From the NCBI GenBank assembly GCA_963800865.1, contig CAWDCL010000004.1, forward strand, positions 791,013-855,012: 64,000 bases of DNA, given 5' to 3'. A program made the translations under genes and the position numbers. The stretch comes from an uncultured Acidobacteriota bacterium (GTDB lineage: Bacteria > Acidobacteriota > Polarisedimenticolia > J045). Below the pieces are notes generated by a model. It was not told the origin of the DNA. It did no database searches and saw only the letters and a program-made list of their open reading frames with translations. Numbering within the stretch: the first letter of the stretch is position 1; the number at the start of each line of letters is the position of its first letter. Below, one piece after another: positions 21,801 through 43,763 of this stretch.

Positions 21801-24251
21801 CTACCGCCCGTAGTGCCCGAGCAGCCCCTCGCCCTTGACCCCGACCGCCGACACCAGCCAGCAGGTCAGCGAGCCGGGCGCCGACGCCGAGCGGTCCGTG
21901 AAGGCGGTGTCGGACGCGCTGACATCCTCGCCGGTGACGTCGACGAAGCTGCCGGAGGCTTGCGGGTCGCTGCCGCGGTACACCGTGTAGGTCAGCGCCG
22001 AGCCGACCGGCCACCAGGTCAGCGCCGTCGCACCGCCGGCCTGGCGCGACAGGTCGCGCAGCAGGACCTCCGGGAGCGGGGTCTCCCAGGGGCGCGTCTT
22101 CAGCTCCAGCCGCCAGGACTGCAGCGAGCCCACGTTGCCGGCCGCCGCGTCCTGCACCTCGAGCGTCCAGGTCCCGAGCGACGACCGGCCGCGCAGCACG
22201 TCGAGGCTGTCGACCGGCGCGGTCAGCGTGTCGTAGGTCGTGTCGATGTTGTCGGCCGAGCCGCCCTGGCGGCTGTGCAGCCGCACCCGCGTCCCGTCGG
22301 GCGCGACGAGCGTCACGCGCAGGTCGGCGATGTAGGGGTGCGTGATCTGCACCCGCACGTCGACCTCCTCCAGCTCCTCGTCGAGCGTCACGCCGATGGC
22401 CGAGGTCGTCTTCCCGGGGTTGGGGATCGCCTTCGGGGTGTCGGTGGCATCGCGCTGCGTCAGCAGCGGCGCGCCGAGCGGGACGAAGAAGGCGTCGGTC
22501 GTGCCGGAGGCGCCCTGCGCCGTCGTCCAGTCGACCGCGAAGGCCAGCTTGTGCCCGGCCGGCGCGTTCGGCGCGACGGAGAGGCCGAAGTGCGGCGCGA
22601 CCGTCTCGGCCGACGCGCCGGTCCCGAGATCGGGCCACAGGGCGCCAGTCTGCGGCTGGCCGTAAACGGTCAGCGGCCGCAGCGTCCCGGAGATCCCGGT
22701 CGCCGCGCCGCCGGCGTTGCGCACCGTCACCGCGAGCTGTCCCGCCTCGCCGGGCGCGAACCAGCCGTCCGCGTTCGTCTCCTGCGCGGCGCGGCTGGCG
22801 GTCACGGCCAGCCCGGTCGGGTTCGGCGAGAGGGTCACGTCCAGCCGCGTCGCGTCGCCGCGCGAGCTGGCCACCGTGAACGGGACGACGCGGGTCTGGT
22901 ACCCGTCGGCGCTGACCTCCAGCTGGTACGAGCCGGCCTTCAGCACGCGCTGGTAGTCGCCCACCGGCAGGTCCGTGAAGAACGGGTGCTGGCGGCCGTC
23001 GACGCGCAGCGTCGCGGCGAGCGGCGCGCCGGTCGTGACGTCGGTGACGCGCCCCCGCACGCCGGTCAGCGCGCGCTCCATAGAGGAGAGCATCGACTCG
23101 CGGTTGTCGTTCCAGTAGCCGTCGAGGGTGCTGGCGGCCGGCGTCTTGGGGCCGCTCAGCTCGACCGTCAGGTCGAGGTCGCCCTGCCAGACCATGTTCC
23201 AGTCCTGCATCCCGCCGTAGATGACGTACCAGTCCGCGCCGTTGGTGATCCCCTGCGAGAACGAGCCGCTGCCGTGCATCGGCGCGTTGTCCTCGGCGTA
23301 GTCGAGCGCGATGTCGACCAGGACGTCGTCGTCGGGGGCCACCGAGTAGTTGGGAAGCCCGTTGGTGTTGCCGTCGTAGGGGTAGTTCGTCACGACCGCC
23401 CCGCCGTGGAAGTTCCCCGACAGGCTGGTCTGGTGTGCGAACTGCCAGTTCATCATCAGCCCGGTTTCCTTCGCGCGCCCGGCGGTCGTGTTGACCGGAT
23501 CGTTCCAGATGTCCGGGAAGTCGCGGTTGAGGTCGACGCCGGCCGCGTTGTAGCGCTGGGCCAGCACGTTCCCGTCGGGGTTCATCGAGACCATGATCCA
23601 GATCTCGAGGTTGTCGACGAGCCGCTGGACGCGCGTGTCGGTCGCGTAGCGGTCGGTCAGCCAGTCGATCAGCCGCAGCAGGTTCTCCGCCCCGACCTTC
23701 TCGTCGCCGTGCATGTTGCCGACGTACTTGAAAGCGGGCTCGTCCTCTTCGACGTCGGGGTTGTCGGTGATCTTCAGCCACCACAGCTCGCGCCCCTGCA
23801 CGCTCTTGCCGGCCGAGCTGAGGCGCGTGATCGCCGGGTGATCGTTCGCGACCTGCTGCAGCTGCGTGGTCCAGGAGCTGTAGTCGTGGTAGGTGGCCTC
23901 GGGGGCCAGCGGCCCGTCCTGCTGCTGCTGCCGGGCGAGGAACTCCGCCAGGCCGGGGTCGGGGAGCTCGGTCCAGGAGAGGCCCAGTGCCTCGAGCTTC
24001 TCCATCTCCTCGGCGGTGACGTAGGCGATCACCTCGCGCTGCTCGTCACGCTCGACGTCGAAGCCGGCGTTGAGCAGCTCGGCGAACTCGACCGGGCCGG
24101 CGCCCAGGATCCGCACGATCCGGTACTCGGCGCGGCCGAGGGGGCCGATCGGGCGCGGCGCGGGGCCGGCGGCGAGGAGGACGGGGAGAGAGGCCGCCAC
24201 GAGGAGGGCGGCGAGCGGGCGGATCCGGCCGAGGCCGGGCAAACGCGGCAT
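21801..24251 (-). CDS. Secreted M14 zinc carboxypeptidase with a C-terminal proprotein-convertase P-domain
   Basis: Signal peptide. KYVGNMHGDEKVG is the M14 zinc-binding HxxE signature. PYIADLRVTLVAPDGTRVRLHS...GNVGSLQSWRLEL is a P/Homo-B domain. Confidence 0.85.
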   Translation of the reverse strand: MPRLPGLGRIRPLAALLVAASLPVLLAAGPAPRPIGPLGRAEYRIVRILGAGPVEFAELLNAGFDVERDEQREVIAYVTAEEMEKLEALGLSWTELPDPGLAEFLARQQQQDGPLAPEATYHDYSSWTTQLQQVANDHPAITRLSSAGKSVQGRELWWLKITDNPDVEEDEPAFKYVGNMHGDEKVGAENLLRLIDWLTDRYATDTRVQRLVDNLEIWIMVSMNPDGNVLAQRYNAAGVDLNRDFPDIWNDPVNTTAGRAKETGLMMNWQFAHQTSLSGNFHGGAVVTNYPYDGNTNGLPNYSVAPDDDVLVDIALDYAEDNAPMHGSGSFSQGITNGADWYVIYGGMQDWNMVWQGDLDLTVELSGPKTPAASTLDGYWNDNRESMLSSMERALTGVRGRVTDVTTGAPLAATLRVDGRQHPFFTDLPVGDYQRVLKAGSYQLEVSADGYQTRVVPFTVASSRGDATRLDVTLSPNPTGLAVTASRAAQETNADGWFAPGEAGQLAVTVRNAGGAATGISGTLRPLTVYGQPQTGALWPDLGTGASAETVAPHFGLSVAPNAPAGHKLAFAVDWTTAQGASGTTDAFFVPLGAPLLTQRDATDTPKAIPNPGKTTSAIGVTLDEELEEVDVRVQITHPYIADLRVTLVAPDGTRVRLHSRQGGSADNIDTTYDTLTAPVDSLDVLRGRSSLGTWTLEVQDAAAGNVGSLQSWRLELKTRPWETPLPEVLLRDLSRQAGGATALTWWPVGSALTYTVYRGSDPQASGSFVDVTGEDVSASDTAFTDRSASAPGSLTCWLVSAVGVKGEGLLGHYGR

Positions 24252-24327
24252 GAGCGGAGGGCTCCCGGGAAGGGTGCCTCAAATGTACCCGAGAAATGGG
24301 GCAGCGGTCGTCCGGGCCGGCGACGCG

Positions 24328-38167: not shown

Positions 38168-39235
38168 GTGCCGCCGACCGTCCAGCTGATCGAGCCGTAC
38201 CACGGCGAGTCGCACGCCCGCCTCGTCGACGGGATGGTCCGGCGCCTGCCGTTCGACTTCCGCCTGCTGACGATGACGCCGCGCAAGTGGAAATGGCGGA
38301 TGCGCGGCGCGGCGCTGTGGGCGGCCGACGCGCTGGCCGGCGCGCCGCCGGCCGAGGTGCTGTTCGCGTCGGCCTACCTGTCGCTGCCGGACTTCCTGGC
38401 GCTGGGACCGCGCTGGTCGCGCGACGCGCTCAAGGTGGTCTACTTCCACGAGAACCAGTTCGTCTACCCGGCGCGGCTGGAGAAGGAGTGGGACTTCCAC
38501 TTCGCGCTCTCCAACGTGACGACCGCGCTGGCGGCCGACCGCGTGGCCTTCAACAGCGCCTACAACCGCGACTCGTTCCTGGGCGCGATCCCGGGCTTCC
38601 TGAAGAAGTTCCCCGACTACCGGCCCGAGCGCGTCGCCGAGCGGATCGCGGAGCGCTCGCGCGTGCTGCCGGTGCCGCTCGAGCCGGAGGAGTTCACGGA
38701 CCTGCCCCGGCCCGCGCGTGAGGGCCCGGCGCGGATTCTCTGGAACCACCGCTGGGAGTACGACAAGAACCCCGAGGAGTTCTTCGAGGCGCTGTTCCGG
38801 CTGGCCGACGCCGGCCTGCCGTTCGAGGTCGCGGTGGCGGGGGAGTCGTTCGCCGAACGGCCGCCGGTCTTCGACGCGGCGCGGGAGCGGCTGGGCGGGC
38901 GGATCGTGCACTGGGGCTTCGTCGAGTCGCGGCGGGCCTACCTGGAGCTGGCCGCCTCGTGCGACCTGGTGGTCTCGACGGCGCTGCACGAGTTCTTCGG
39001 CGTCGCGGTCCTGGAGGCGGTGCGCGCGGGGTGCTTTCCGGTGCTGCCGGACCGGCTGTCGTACCCGGAGCTGTTTCCAGCCGGGCACCTGTATCGCGAG
39101 GGGACGCTGGTCGAGACGCTCGCGCGGCGGATCGAGGCGATCGATGCCGTGCGGGGGCAGGACCTGCGGGGGCTGGCGGCGCGGTACGAGTGGCCGGCCT
39201 GGGAACCGGGCTATCGCGCGCTGCTGGAGCGGTGA
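38168..39235 (+). CDS. Glycosyltransferase with a DUF3524 N-terminal domain and a GT4-like C-terminal domain (homologous to GTDC1 / queuosine-tRNA mannosyltransferase)
   Basis: IEPYHGESHARLVDG...YFHENQFVYP N-terminus, and the GT1/GT4 C-terminal motif EFFGVAVLEAVRAGCFPVLPD. The start is a GTG. Confidence 0.65.
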   Translation: MPPTVQLIEPYHGESHARLVDGMVRRLPFDFRLLTMTPRKWKWRMRGAALWAADALAGAPPAEVLFASAYLSLPDFLALGPRWSRDALKVVYFHENQFVYPARLEKEWDFHFALSNVTTALAADRVAFNSAYNRDSFLGAIPGFLKKFPDYRPERVAERIAERSRVLPVPLEPEEFTDLPRPAREGPARILWNHRWEYDKNPEEFFEALFRLADAGLPFEVAVAGESFAERPPVFDAARERLGGRIVHWGFVESRRAYLELAASCDLVVSTALHEFFGVAVLEAVRAGCFPVLPDRLSYPELFPAGHLYREGTLVETLARRIEAIDAVRGQDLRGLAARYEWPAWEPGYRALLER

Positions 39236-39310
39236 GACGCGCCCCGGCCCCGCGAGGGAGCCGGGACGCGCGCGAACGCAATCAGACGATCAAGACCGAG
39301 GGTGAGCCCG

Positions 39311-39559
39311 TCACTCCGTCGGAACCGGGCCGCCGTCGGTCGGGTAACAGGGCTTCGGCGCCTTGGCCACGTCGGCGTAGCACTGGTTCGAGTAGACGAC
39401 GCCGTCGGCGCAGATCACCGGATCCCACACGTCCGGGCAGACCTTCCCGCCGCCGCCACCGCTGGGCGGCTTCTTGCCGGCCATGGCCGTTCCGATCGCC
39501 AGCGCGAGCGCCAGCACCAGCACGAATCCGATCAGCAGGCGAACACTCTTCTTCCTCAT
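39311..39559 (-). CDS. Small secreted Kazal-type-like protein (82 aa)
   Basis: GGGAGGA RBS. Signal peptide MRKKSVRLLIGFVLVLALALAIGTAMA. CPDVWDPVICADGVVYSNQCYADVAKAPKPC matches the Kazal pattern C..(PVC)..DG.TYsN.C....C. Confidence 0.55.
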   Translation of the reverse strand: MRKKSVRLLIGFVLVLALALAIGTAMAGKKPPSGGGGGKVCPDVWDPVICADGVVYSNQCYADVAKAPKPCYPTDGGPVPTE

Positions 39560-39784
39560 CCGGATCCTCCCTTGGCTGGGGCCGGACGATGCGGTCCGGC
39601 GGCAGGAGCCGTTGCTACCACAGCTCTCGGTGACGATTCAAGCGGCGGCCCGTGGGGGCACCTGGCCGCCATGTCCAGACCCCGACCGGGGGTACTTCCG
39701 CTGCACCGGCAGGACGCATTCTAGGCAGGTTCTTCGTCCCGGGATCAAGCGCGCAACCCCATCGGAGCAGGTCACCGCCCCCCG

Positions 39785-39950
39785 CGACGCGAAACGCGGC
39801 ATCCTCCCAGTGGCTGCGGTCGGCCGGAGTTCTTCCGGTACAGACCGTCCGATCCGCAGGCGCGGGAGCAGCGCTCCGCGTGACGAGATGCCTCGAGGCA
39901 CGCTAGGATCGGTGCTCCGGCGAGCCGGGTTGAAGCGAGGTCGGCCATGA
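39785..39950 (+). pseudogene. HicA-like toxin remnant (internally deleted or degraded) whose stop overlaps the hicB start
   Basis: IRRRGSS...MPRGTLGSVLRRAGLKRGRP* resembles the HicA segments RxKGSH and LPxGTLxSILKQAGL, but about 17 residues are missing between them. The last four bases overlap the hicB start as ATGA. Confidence 0.3.
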
Positions 39951-40210
39951 GGAAGTACCACTACCTGGTTCGAATCACGAGGGACGCCGACAGCGACTGG
40001 GGCGCATCGGTGCCGGATCTGCCCGGGTGCGTCGCCACCGGAAAAACGCTCGATACCGTCATCCGTCGCATTCAGGTCGCCATCACGCTTCACATCCGGG
40101 GGTTGCGCGACGACGGGCTGGCCGTGCCCCGGCCGCGGGCGCGCGCCGTGATGCCGCGCCGGACCGGGAAGCCGTTCGATGTCTGTGCCACCGTGGAGGT
40201 GGCCGCGTAG
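39947..40210 (+). CDS. hicB: HicB-family antitoxin
   Basis: YHYLVRITRDADSDWGASVPDLPGCVATGKTLDTVIRRIQVAITLHI is the HicB/UPF0150 signature. Confidence 0.75.
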   Translation: MRKYHYLVRITRDADSDWGASVPDLPGCVATGKTLDTVIRRIQVAITLHIRGLRDDGLAVPRPRARAVMPRRTGKPFDVCATVEVAA

Positions 40211-40224
40211 TCGCCGGCGTCCCA

Positions 40225-43763
<3,539 letters not shown>

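What the first reader, a model, noticed from the sequence alone, without database searches (positions are those of the whole stretch)
39311..39559. A Kazal-like mini-protein in a bacterium
The 82-aa protein has a signal peptide, a Gly-rich linker, and then CPDVWDPVICADGVVYSNQCYADVAKAPKPC. This fits the Kazal serine-protease-inhibitor signature (the PVC..DG.TYsN.C core) with 4-5 Cys. There is a strong SD. It is convergent with the DUF3524 glycosyltransferase gene. Kazal domains are mostly eukaryotic. A bacterial one may be a horizontally acquired protease inhibitor, for example for defence against host or predator proteases.
Basis: partly seen in the sequence, partly recalled or inferred. Interest (0 to 1): 0.5.

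Follow-up and report, generated by a model that had tools for sequence, protein, structure and literature searches.

The report
Secreted two-disulfide bacterial mini-Kazal domain
This is a real, conserved gene for a small exported protein carrying a shortened Kazal-type protease-inhibitor domain; the domain is common in Acidobacteriota and Planctomycetota and partly annotated already, so it is a modestly interesting, untested bacterial member of a known family rather than a recent import from eukaryotes.

Summary
The 82-aa ORF at 39311..39559 (-) is real. It has a GGGAGGA ribosome-binding site, a Sec signal peptide (cleavage predicted after A-M-A27), a Gly-rich linker and a 31-residue four-Cys core. 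It is under purifying selection (dN/dS 0.29-0.40).

It scores below Pfam's Kazal thresholds (17.2 bits against 21), but Kazal homology is solid:
- All 16 single-sequence PDB hits are Kazal inhibitors.
- The family profile hits them at E = 7.8e-9.
- hhalign against Pfam-passing bacterial Kazal domains gives 98.7% probability.
- Close orthologues pass Kazal_1.
- Two AlphaFold models retrieve almost only Kazal folds.
- P3 Cys and P15' Asn are in register.

The framework is a short variant: C3 is shifted by one residue and only 10 residues separate C4 from C6. Six-Cys relatives show C1 and C5 always present or absent together (101 both, 23 neither, 0 mixed), matching the Kazal 1-5 disulfide.

The most likely function is a periplasmic or secreted standard-mechanism serine-protease inhibitor with P1 = Asp. 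The target may be subtilisin-like, but that is an inference.

Native codon usage, synteny and wide bacterial distribution argue against recent horizontal acquisition. NCBI already names an 81%-identical relative "Kazal-type serine protease inhibitor".

The parts
39311..39559 (-). Coding sequence of the 82-aa pre-protein (stop codon 39311-39313)
   Evidence: ORF list and sequence. Only frame with a coding-like GC3 in this stretch. End-to-end alignment with 36 relatives of 68-104 aa. dN/dS 0.29-0.40 against four orthologues.
39565..39573 (-). Shine-Dalgarno site AAGGGAGGA, with the GGAGG core 6 nt upstream of the ATG
   Evidence: Read directly from the sequence.
39479..39559 (-). Sec (type I) signal peptide, residues 1-27; cleavage predicted after A25-M26-A27
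   Evidence: The n-region MRKKSVR, a 16-residue hydrophobic core and an AxA motif are read from the sequence. The equivalent ALA|GKK, AFA|KKP and AYA|KKP sites are conserved in relatives. No lipobox Cys. The cleavage site is inferred by the -3/-1 rule, not by a predictor.
39440..39478 (-). Basic, Gly-rich linker, residues 28-40 (GKKPPSGGGGGKV). It replaces the segment that carries Cys1 in six-Cys relatives.
   Evidence: Alignments A1 and A3. In multi-domain relatives the same KPGGGG segment is the inter-domain linker (L019, L022, L025).
39347..39439 (-). Kazal-like core, residues 41-71: C41(=C2)-x8-C50(=C3)-x9-C60(=C4)-x10-C71(=C6). Predicted disulfides are C41-C60 and C50-C71.
39422..39439 (-). 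Predicted reactive-site loop P3-P3': C41-P42-D43(P1)-V44-W45-D46. The scissile bond would be D43-V44.
   Evidence: Register against CrSPI-1, GmSPI-2 and PSTI in the HMMER alignments. P15' = N58 is conserved in 268 of 270 domains. P1 is Asp in 61% of domains, with 14 other residue types.
39314..39346 (-). C-terminal tail, residues 72-82 (YPTDGGPVPTE), with the conserved GGPVP motif. It is low-confidence in the model and acts as the inter-domain linker in tandem relatives.
   Evidence: Alignment A1. pLDDT 56 for the last block. Tandem proteins L019, L022 and L025.
39237..39271 (.). GC-rich 15-bp hairpin in the 75-bp gap between the two convergent genes. It is a candidate bidirectional terminator without a U-tract.
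   Evidence: RNA fold of 39232-39315 (-): MFE -42.2 kcal/mol, z = -2.37. The consensus terminator scan found nothing, so this is only suggestive.

Best explanation
The gene encodes a small pre-protein that the Sec pathway exports. Signal peptidase I is predicted to cut it after Ala27, leaving a 55-residue mature protein in the periplasm, from where it may be released. Its 31-residue core is a shortened, two-disulfide Kazal-type domain with predicted disulfides C41-C60 and C50-C71, equivalent to Kazal 2-4 and 3-6. The 1-5 bridge present in six-Cys relatives has been lost. It most likely works as a canonical (Laskowski standard-mechanism) serine-protease inhibitor. The rigid loop C41-P-D43|V-W-D46, braced by Asn58 (P15'), would dock like a substrate into a protease active site with Asp43 in the S1 pocket. 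By analogy with its closest characterised relatives, the likeliest targets are subtilisin-like (S8) proteases, or other proteases that accept Asp or Glu at P1. No protease gene is linked to it, so it would protect the cell envelope against foreign or the cell's own secreted proteases, in the way ecotin does, rather than partner a protease encoded next door. Shown here: the gene is real, its sequence has the layout of an exported protein, it has Kazal homology and a Kazal fold, and the Cys covariation fits Kazal topology. Inferred: the cleavage site, the disulfide pairing, inhibitory activity, the target class and the physiological role.
Confidence: 0.6

Rival explanations
1. It is a non-inhibitory Kazal-like module. 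The domain keeps the fold but acts as a binding or structural unit in the cell envelope, as the Kazal-like domains of follistatin, SPARC/BM-40, agrin and OATP transporters do, and does not block a protease.
For: Follistatin, FSTL1, BM-40, complement factor I and OATP Kazal-like domains are among the structural matches. The putative reactive loop is strongly conserved across phyla instead of hypervariable. There is no linked protease gene. Giant proteins with many Kazal repeats in Saprospiraceae look more like adhesins or surface arrays than classical inhibitors.
Against: The best sequence and structure matches are true inhibitors, not follistatin-type modules. The inhibitor-specific P3 Cys and P15' Asn register is kept. 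P1 is the position that changes chemistry, including between the heads of tandem proteins. The protein is a free single domain with nothing attached that it could scaffold.
Confidence: 0.2
2. It is a secreted disulfide-rich antimicrobial or signalling peptide that merely reuses a Kazal-like scaffold.
For: It is small, exported, disulfide-stabilised and monocistronic, with variable genomic context. It evolves faster than its neighbours (85% against 95% identity to L003). Several paralogues can occur per genome (L036, L027, L028).
Against: The mature peptide is not cationic or amphipathic (5 Lys against 5 Asp plus 1 Glu, read from the sequence). There are no immunity, transporter or modification genes nearby. 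The conservation pattern matches inhibitor scaffold positions.
Confidence: 0.07
3. One reading: it is a recently horizontally acquired eukaryotic Kazal inhibitor used against host or predator proteases.
For: Every solved relative found in the PDB searches is eukaryotic. P1 = Asp is otherwise typical of oomycete effectors (PMC7382257). Defence against exogenous proteases is compatible with the absence of a linked protease.
Against: GC3 of 0.89 is like the host genes. Synteny is conserved in a related MAG. The short framework (C3 shift, C4-x10-C6) was found in 270 distinct domains; the genome loci that carry it are bacterial MAGs, while the taxonomy of the other held proteins was not determined. 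It grades into classical-type bacterial Kazal domains. The defensive role may still hold, but the recent-transfer part is not supported.
Confidence: 0.05
4. It is a spurious ORF in a 73% GC genome.
For: High-GC genomes produce many long random ORFs, and several overlap this locus.
Against: There is a strong SD, coding-like GC3 in this frame only, hundreds of homologues with the same length and architecture, and purifying selection.
Confidence: 0.01

Closest known systems
Galleria mellonella silk protease inhibitor 2 (GmSPI-2; PDB 4HGU/2M5X)
   Different: It is an animal protein. Its C3 sits at the classical position (PVCG). It has 14 residues between C4 and C6, forming a third beta-strand, against 10 here. 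Its P1 is Thr, not Asp. The window protein's Cys-to-Cys core is 31 residues against 35.
[quoted passage not shown]
   Same: Best sequence hit (9.1e-6 for the single sequence, 7.8e-9 for the profile). Domain 1 has two disulfides. Domain 2 has an acidic P1 (Glu) and inhibits subtilisin at Ki 2.5 nM. P2' is aromatic and stacks on subtilisin Phe188 (PMC3082530). The window protein has Trp45 at P2'.
   Different: It is two-headed and eukaryotic, with classical C3 placement and a different C-terminal segment (3-10 helix).
Phytophthora infestans EPI1 (domain EPI1a) and EPI10, Kazal-like effectors
   Same: Secreted microbial Kazal-like inhibitors with P1 = Asp that inhibit subtilisin-like proteases (PMC7382257). 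EPI1a is a stable inhibitor with only two disulfides (PMC1236909).
   Different: EPI1a lacks the 3-6 bridge, whereas the window protein lacks 1-5. The EPI proteins are eukaryotic, multi-domain, and have a known host target (tomato P69B).
Classical-type bacterial Kazal domains (Hymenobacter lipoproteins, Woeseiaceae and Saprospiraceae multi-Kazal proteins; Pfam PF00050/PF07648)
   Same: Bacterial and secreted. They share the core ...C-[PL]-D-V-[YW]-D-P-V...DG.TYSN.CYA..A and are often P1 = Asp (19 of 48). hhalign gives 98.7%.
   Different: They keep PVCG (the classical C3 position) and C4-x14-C6, and they pass Pfam thresholds (28.7-115.9 bits). The window's subfamily has PVxC, C4-x5-C5-x3-C6 (or C4-x10-C6 in four-Cys forms), and mostly falls below threshold as single domains.
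Ecotin (MEROPS I11), the periplasmic serine-protease inhibitor of Gram-negative bacteria
   Same: A functional analogy only. It is an exported bacterial inhibitor that is not aimed at the cell's own proteases and is thought to protect against exogenous ones (PMC9904509).
   Different: It has an unrelated fold and a dimeric mechanism, with no sequence relationship.

Membership tests
Kazal-type inhibitor domain (Pfam PF00050 Kazal_1 / PF07648 Kazal_2; MEROPS I1) | Score at or above the Pfam gathering threshold | tested here: not met
   Window protein: Kazal_1 17.2 bits (cut-off 21) and Kazal_2 15.2 bits (cut-off 22.8). Orthologues at 79-89% identity (A1) score 21.3-23.2 on Kazal_1, just above the cut-off, so the clade straddles the threshold.
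Kazal-type inhibitor domain | Statistically significant sequence homology to established Kazal domains | tested here: met
   phmmer against the PDB gives 9.1e-6 with all 16 hits being Kazal. The family profile gives 7.8e-9. hhalign against Pfam-passing-type bacterial Kazal domains gives 98.7%, E = 3.6e-16 over 30 columns. The family profile retrieves multi-Kazal proteins that pass Pfam with up to 520 bits.
Kazal-type inhibitor domain | Six Cys forming 1-5 / 2-4 / 3-6 disulfides | tested here: not met
   Only four Cys are present (C2, C3, C4, C6 equivalents). Six-Cys relatives exist, and C1 and C5 are gained or lost strictly together (101 both, 23 neither, 0 mixed), consistent with a 1-5 bridge that this clade has lost. 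Two-disulfide Kazal domains are accepted members (GmSPI-2, PMC4169406; EPI1a, PMC1236909). The actual pairing was not determined.
Kazal-type inhibitor domain | Classical spacing C2-x7-C3-x10-C4 | tested here: not met
   The spacing here is C2-x8-C3-x9-C4. The C2-to-C4 distance is identical, but C3 lies one residue later (PVIC against PVCG) in all 270 short-type domains.
Kazal-type inhibitor domain | Conserved contact and brace residues: P3 = Cys, Tyr in the hairpin, P15' = Asn | tested here: met
   C41 = P3 and D43 = P1. Y56 is invariant. N58 lies exactly at P15' and is Asn in 268 of 270 domains. The P3 Cys / P15' Asn consensus is stated in PMC1236909.
Kazal-type inhibitor domain | Beta-hairpin plus alpha-helix plus third strand fold | tested here: inconclusive
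Kazal-type inhibitor domain | Tight, substrate-like inhibition of a serine protease | not testable with these tools
   This needs recombinant protein and enzyme assays.
Non-classical Kazal group II (LDTI/rhodniin type, Cys-x3-Cys cystine-stabilised helix) | C1-x1-C2 and C4-x3-C5 | tested here: not met
   The window protein has neither C1 nor C5. A few relatives (for example the third paralogue in L036) do show C1-x1-C2 with C4-x3-C5. The group definition is from PMC3082530.

The most novel reading that the evidence does not exclude
The 'short' framework (PVxC, with C4 to C6 only 10 residues apart and a 31-residue Cys-to-Cys core) would be the smallest functional Kazal scaffold known and a radiation specific to bacteria. 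It occurs in single- and multi-headed forms across Acidobacteriota and Planctomycetota. Its unusually conserved CPDVWDPV loop with P1 = Asp would be aimed at one widespread class of Asp-accepting (subtilisin-like or Glu/Asp-specific) extracellular proteases. That would make it the first functionally defined bacterial Kazal inhibitor system and a general envelope defence in soil and sediment bacteria.
Probability: 0.3. Interest if true: 0.5.

Novelty: new member of a known kind. Interest (0 to 1): 0.3.

Why it matters
Protein protease inhibitors of bacteria are poorly explored, and I found no bacterial Kazal-type inhibitor that has been tested biochemically. This gene represents a large, mostly unannotated subfamily of exported mini-Kazal domains in abundant but little-cultivated soil and sediment phyla. 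The family profile retrieved 713 proteins from the 5.8-billion-cluster collection. If these proteins are active, they would show how such bacteria protect their envelope in protease-rich habitats. They would also give a very small two-disulfide inhibitor scaffold with an unusual acidic P1 residue. In practical terms, the subfamily sits right at Pfam's Kazal threshold, so most members are currently labelled 'hypothetical protein', and a dedicated model would fix that. The finding does not change any concept: the fold, the mechanism and the presence of Kazal domains in bacteria are all already on record.

Tried and rejected
- An exact-sequence look-up of the window protein in public assemblies found nothing on record. 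The source organism was therefore inferred from relatives: Acidobacteriota MAGs, 84-86% identical.
- NCBIfam gave only noise.
- The sigma-70 promoter and intrinsic-terminator consensus scans of 39150-40000 found nothing. Rfam found nothing in 39200-40300.
- Genomic context gave no target. Relatives sit in unrelated neighbourhoods. A motif search for S8 (HGTHVAG / GTSMAxP) and S1 (TAAHC / GDSGG) proteases in 1.05 Mb of flanks around 81 loci found none; the patterns are strict, so divergent proteases could be missed. The ten large window ORFs that were scanned encode no serine endopeptidase; there is an M14 carboxypeptidase and an alpha/beta hydrolase matching the S33 serine-aminopeptidase family.
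- Four literature searches for characterised bacterial Kazal inhibitors returned nothing relevant. The library lacks most subscription journals, so this is weak negative evidence.
- The AlphaFold-database fold library was unavailable, so UniProt-level annotation of structural neighbours could not be checked.
- The 'Cake' and 'Scone' designer beta-propeller hits in the profile-against-PDB search were rejected as artefacts. Each repeat scores about 2 bits on PVIGEDGTIY, with no significant individual domain.
- The spurious-ORF and recent-HGT explanations were rejected (see rival explanations).
- Model coordinates are not exposed, so S-S distances in the AF2 models could not be measured.

Full report

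Yes.
MRKKSVRLLIGFVLVLALALAIGTAMAGKKPPSGGGGGKVCPDVWDPVICADGVVYSNQCYADVAKAPKPCYPTDGGPVPTE

- In this 73% GC window many long ORFs overlap the locus. Only this frame has the genome's coding signature (GC3 0.89, GC2 0.57).
- The ATG is preceded by AAGGGAGGA, with the GGAGG core 6 nt upstream.
- The N-terminus has the layout of a Sec type I signal peptide: basic MRKKSVR, a 16-residue hydrophobic core, then A-M-A|G, with no lipobox cysteine.
- A basic, Gly-rich linker follows, then a four-cysteine core (C41, C50, C60, C71).
- The gene is convergent with a glycosyltransferase at 38168..39235 that matches PF12038. This family is now called QTMAN_N; that it was formerly DUF3524 is from my own knowledge.
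- A 15-bp GC-rich hairpin at 39237-39271 lies in the 75-bp gap between the two genes.
- Corrections to the finding: there are four Cys, not 4-5, and the motif is PVIC, not PVC.

**2. Is it a gene?**

Yes.
- The single-sequence search found 36 relatives, all 68-104 aa with the same architecture.
- A domain profile found 713 proteins in the 5.8-billion-cluster collection. It found 2,815 representatives among 1.84 billion, and that figure includes classical multi-Kazal proteins.
- dN/dS against four orthologues is 0.29-0.40.
- In the related Acidobacteriota MAG locus L003 the order is conserved: aromatic amino-acid ammonia-lyase, transglutaminase-like protein, glycosyltransferase, then this gene. 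The lyase and glycosyltransferase are 95% identical, the transglutaminase-like protein 80% and the mini-protein 85%.

**3. What is it?**

*Sequence evidence for Kazal homology*
- The window protein matches Pfam Kazal_1 and Kazal_2 only below their gathering cut-offs: 17.2 against 21 bits and 15.2 against 22.8 bits.
- All 16 phmmer hits in the PDB are Kazal inhibitors. The best are horseshoe-crab CrSPI-1 (9.1e-6) and Galleria GmSPI-2.
- The family profile raises these to 7.8e-9 and 2.1e-6.
- 33 of 37 family members hit Kazal_1 at E<1.
- Orthologues at 79-89% identity (alignment A1) score 21.3-23.2 bits, just above the Kazal_1 cut-off.
- The GTDB genome scan also recovered classical-type bacterial Kazal domains (PVCG.DG.TYSN.C...C). 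They occur in Hymenobacter lipoproteins, Woeseiaceae, and giant Saprospiraceae proteins, and they pass Pfam comfortably at 28.7-115.9 bits.
- hhalign between the two bacterial types gives 98.7% probability, E = 3.6e-16, over the 30 columns from just before C2 to seven residues past C4.

*Structural evidence*
- AlphaFold2 models of the window domain (pLDDT 81.7, core 90-93) and of a six-Cys relative (pLDDT 88.7) show a hairpin, a short helix and a short strand.
- The absolute statistics are weak because the domain is tiny.

**4. How does it differ from textbook Kazal?**

The framework is C2-x8-C3-x9-C4, whereas the classical one is C2-x7-C3-x10-C4. The C2-to-C4 distance is the same, but C3 lies one residue later.

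More distant relatives have six Cys: C1-x4..7-C2 ... C4-x5-C5-x3-C6. C6 therefore follows C4 by only about 10 residues. The gap is 14 in GmSPI-2 and in the classical-type bacterial domains.

Across 124 distinct short-type domains:
- C1 and C5 are both present in 101 and both absent in 23. No domain has only one of them.
- The losses fall in at least two different tail contexts (...AKAPKPC in the window's clade, ...AGATGC or ...AKATGC elsewhere), but I did not count independent loss events.
- Every domain with C1-x1-C2 has C4-x3-C5, and C4-x3-C5 occurs in no other domain. This is the pattern of LDTI-type non-classical Kazal inhibitors (PMC3082530).

This covariation is what a 1-5 disulfide predicts. 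The window protein would keep the 2-4 and 3-6 bridges (C41-C60 and C50-C71), as GmSPI-2 does (PMC4169406).

The inhibitor register is intact. C41 is P3, D43 is P1, and N58 falls exactly at P15'. P15' is Asn in 268 of 270 domains, and PMC1236909 states the P3 Cys / P15' Asn consensus.

The Gly-rich head and GGPVP tail of the single-domain proteins are the inter-domain linkers of tandem relatives with two to more than five heads (L015, L019, L022, L025, L047).

**5. How does it probably work?**

Sequence features indicate Sec export; export itself was not tested. Everything else in this section is inference.

The most economical reading is a periplasmic or released standard-mechanism serine-protease inhibitor. 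It would present C-P-D|V-W-D as a substrate-like loop.

Support:
- Scaffold positions are invariant, while P1 takes 15 residue types of very different chemistry (Asp 61%, then Met, Ala, Leu, Phe, Lys, Thr).
- P1 differs between the heads of multi-headed relatives.

The closest characterised proteins are all subtilisin-family inhibitors:
- GmSPI-2 inhibits subtilisin and proteinase K (PMC4169406).
- CrSPI-1 domain 2 has P1 Glu and a Ki of 2.5 nM, and its aromatic P2' stacks on subtilisin Phe188 (PMC3082530).
- Phytophthora EPI1 and EPI10 have P1 = Asp and inhibit subtilases. P1 = Asp is reported as rare in animal Kazal inhibitors (PMC7382257; PMC1236909).

I therefore favour subtilisin-like or other Asp/Glu-accepting proteases as targets, but with low confidence.

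Caveats:
- No protease gene is linked to the family. No S8 or S1 active-site motif occurs in 1.05 Mb of flanks around 81 loci.
- The ten large window ORFs that were scanned contain no serine endopeptidase domain. They include an M14 carboxypeptidase and an alpha/beta hydrolase that matches the S33 serine-aminopeptidase family.
- This fits an ecotin-like protective role (PMC9904509) better than a dedicated protease-inhibitor pair.
- The loop is unusually conserved for an inhibitor family. That leaves room for a non-inhibitory binding role (rival explanation, about 0.2).

**6. Horizontal transfer?**

A recent event is not supported.
- Codon bias is native (GC3 0.89 against 0.86-0.98 for neighbouring genes).
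- Synteny is conserved.
- The short framework forms a broad bacterial radiation in Acidobacteriota (Thermoanaerobaculia, Polarisedimenticolaceae) and Planctomycetota (Phycisphaerae). It grades into classical-type domains in Bacteroidota and Pseudomonadota.
- The deep origin relative to eukaryotic Kazal domains was not tested.

**7. Novelty**

- Kazal domains in bacteria are already in Pfam.
- NCBI's pipeline names an 81%-identical relative of the same four-Cys clade (P0097) and a six-Cys relative (P0099) 'Kazal-type serine protease inhibitor'.
- Most other members that carry a name are called 'hypothetical protein'.
- I found no biochemical study of any bacterial Kazal protein in the searchable library.

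The gene is therefore a new, uncharacterised member of a known family. It belongs to a short-framework subfamily that, as far as I could find, has not been described as such. Interest is modest (0.3). It would rise to about 0.5 if the subfamily proves to be an active, minimal, Asp-P1 inhibitor scaffold with a defined target.

**8. Dead ends**

- Exact-sequence look-up of the window protein.
- NCBIfam.
- Promoter and terminator consensus scans.
- Rfam.
- The AFDB fold library was unavailable.
- The 'Cake' and 'Scone' designer-propeller hits are repeat artefacts.

Noticed in passing
window 40225-43763 (-): The methionine synthase gene (metH) is split over three reading frames. The main ORF 40443..43763 turns to nonsense in its last roughly 210 residues. 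The activation domain continues in ORF 39638..41041 and ends in ORF 40225..40431. That implies two apparent frameshifts, near 41,050-41,100 and near 40,430-40,520. The MetH of a related MAG is called as one intact 1177-aa protein (L001). This is either a pseudogene or indel errors in the assembly.
   Followed up: partly
window 39640-40210 (+): A HicB-like antitoxin gene (39947..40210; PF15919, E = 3.5e-12) is preceded by what looks like a frameshifted hicA. Only the C-terminal ...EMPRGTLGSVLRRAGL is recognisable, in the frame ending at 39950. This cassette fills the gap between metH and the Kazal gene. In related MAGs (L001 and L002, the same contig) that gap holds a 2021-aa beta-propeller/Sortilin-like protein.
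   Followed up: partly
L002 8001-8222 (= L001 10001-10207; MAG MFD00032.bin.3.232): The closest genomic orthologue (84-86% identical) has Cys2 replaced by Ser and Trp(P2') replaced by Arg (ASPDVRDPV), and it lacks the normal start. It is either a decaying copy or a long-read sequencing error.
   Followed up: no
L019, L022, L025, L047, L015, L023, L034, L037: These are tandem multi-headed versions of the short-type domain (2 to more than 5 heads) in Phycisphaerae, Planctomycetota and Acidobacteriota. P1 differs between heads (Asp, Ala, Met, Lys, Leu). L022 contains near-identical repeated units, which suggests recent internal duplication.
   Followed up: partly
L036 (Phycisphaeraceae MAG), three paralogous ORFs: Three paralogues lie on one contig. 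One has C1-x1-C2 and C4-x3-C5 (GCVCPHVYDPVLC...CFASCYGQTGC), the cystine-stabilised-helix pattern of leech LDTI and rhodniin. The non-classical group II framework has therefore also arisen in bacteria.
   Followed up: no
L061, L065, L069, L072, L075, L078, L079 (Saprospiraceae and other Bacteroidota MAGs); P0131, P0133: These are giant proteins of 1,200 to more than 3,100 aa built from many classical-type four-Cys Kazal repeats (up to 22 Pfam Kazal_1 stretches, 520 bits). Their function is unknown, and they look like surface arrays.
   Followed up: no
window 38168-39235 (+): This glycosyltransferase has a full-length match to QTMAN_N (PF12038, tRNA-queuosine alpha-mannosyltransferase N-terminal domain, E = 1.1e-55) plus a GT1 domain, in an Acidobacteriota-like genome. 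It is 95% conserved in L003. Its substrate in bacteria is unclear.
   Followed up: no
window 21801-24278 (-): This 825-aa protein combines an M14 zinc carboxypeptidase domain, a carboxypeptidase regulatory-like domain and a proprotein-convertase P-domain. It is the only clear protease among the ten large ORFs of the window that were scanned, and it is not a Kazal-type target class.
   Followed up: no
L062 668-814 (MAG labelled Candidatus Micrarchaeota archaeon): A classical-type Kazal domain (CPAVYQPVCGTDGNTYSNSC...) sits on a contig binned as an archaeon. This may be binning contamination or a rare archaeal occurrence.
   Followed up: no
window 39311-39559 compared with L003: The mini-protein is 85% identical to its L003 orthologue, whereas the flanking lyase and glycosyltransferase are 95% identical (the transglutaminase-like neighbour is 80%). 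Most differences fall in the signal peptide, the linker and the C-terminal tail, so those parts evolve faster than the Cys core.
   Followed up: partly
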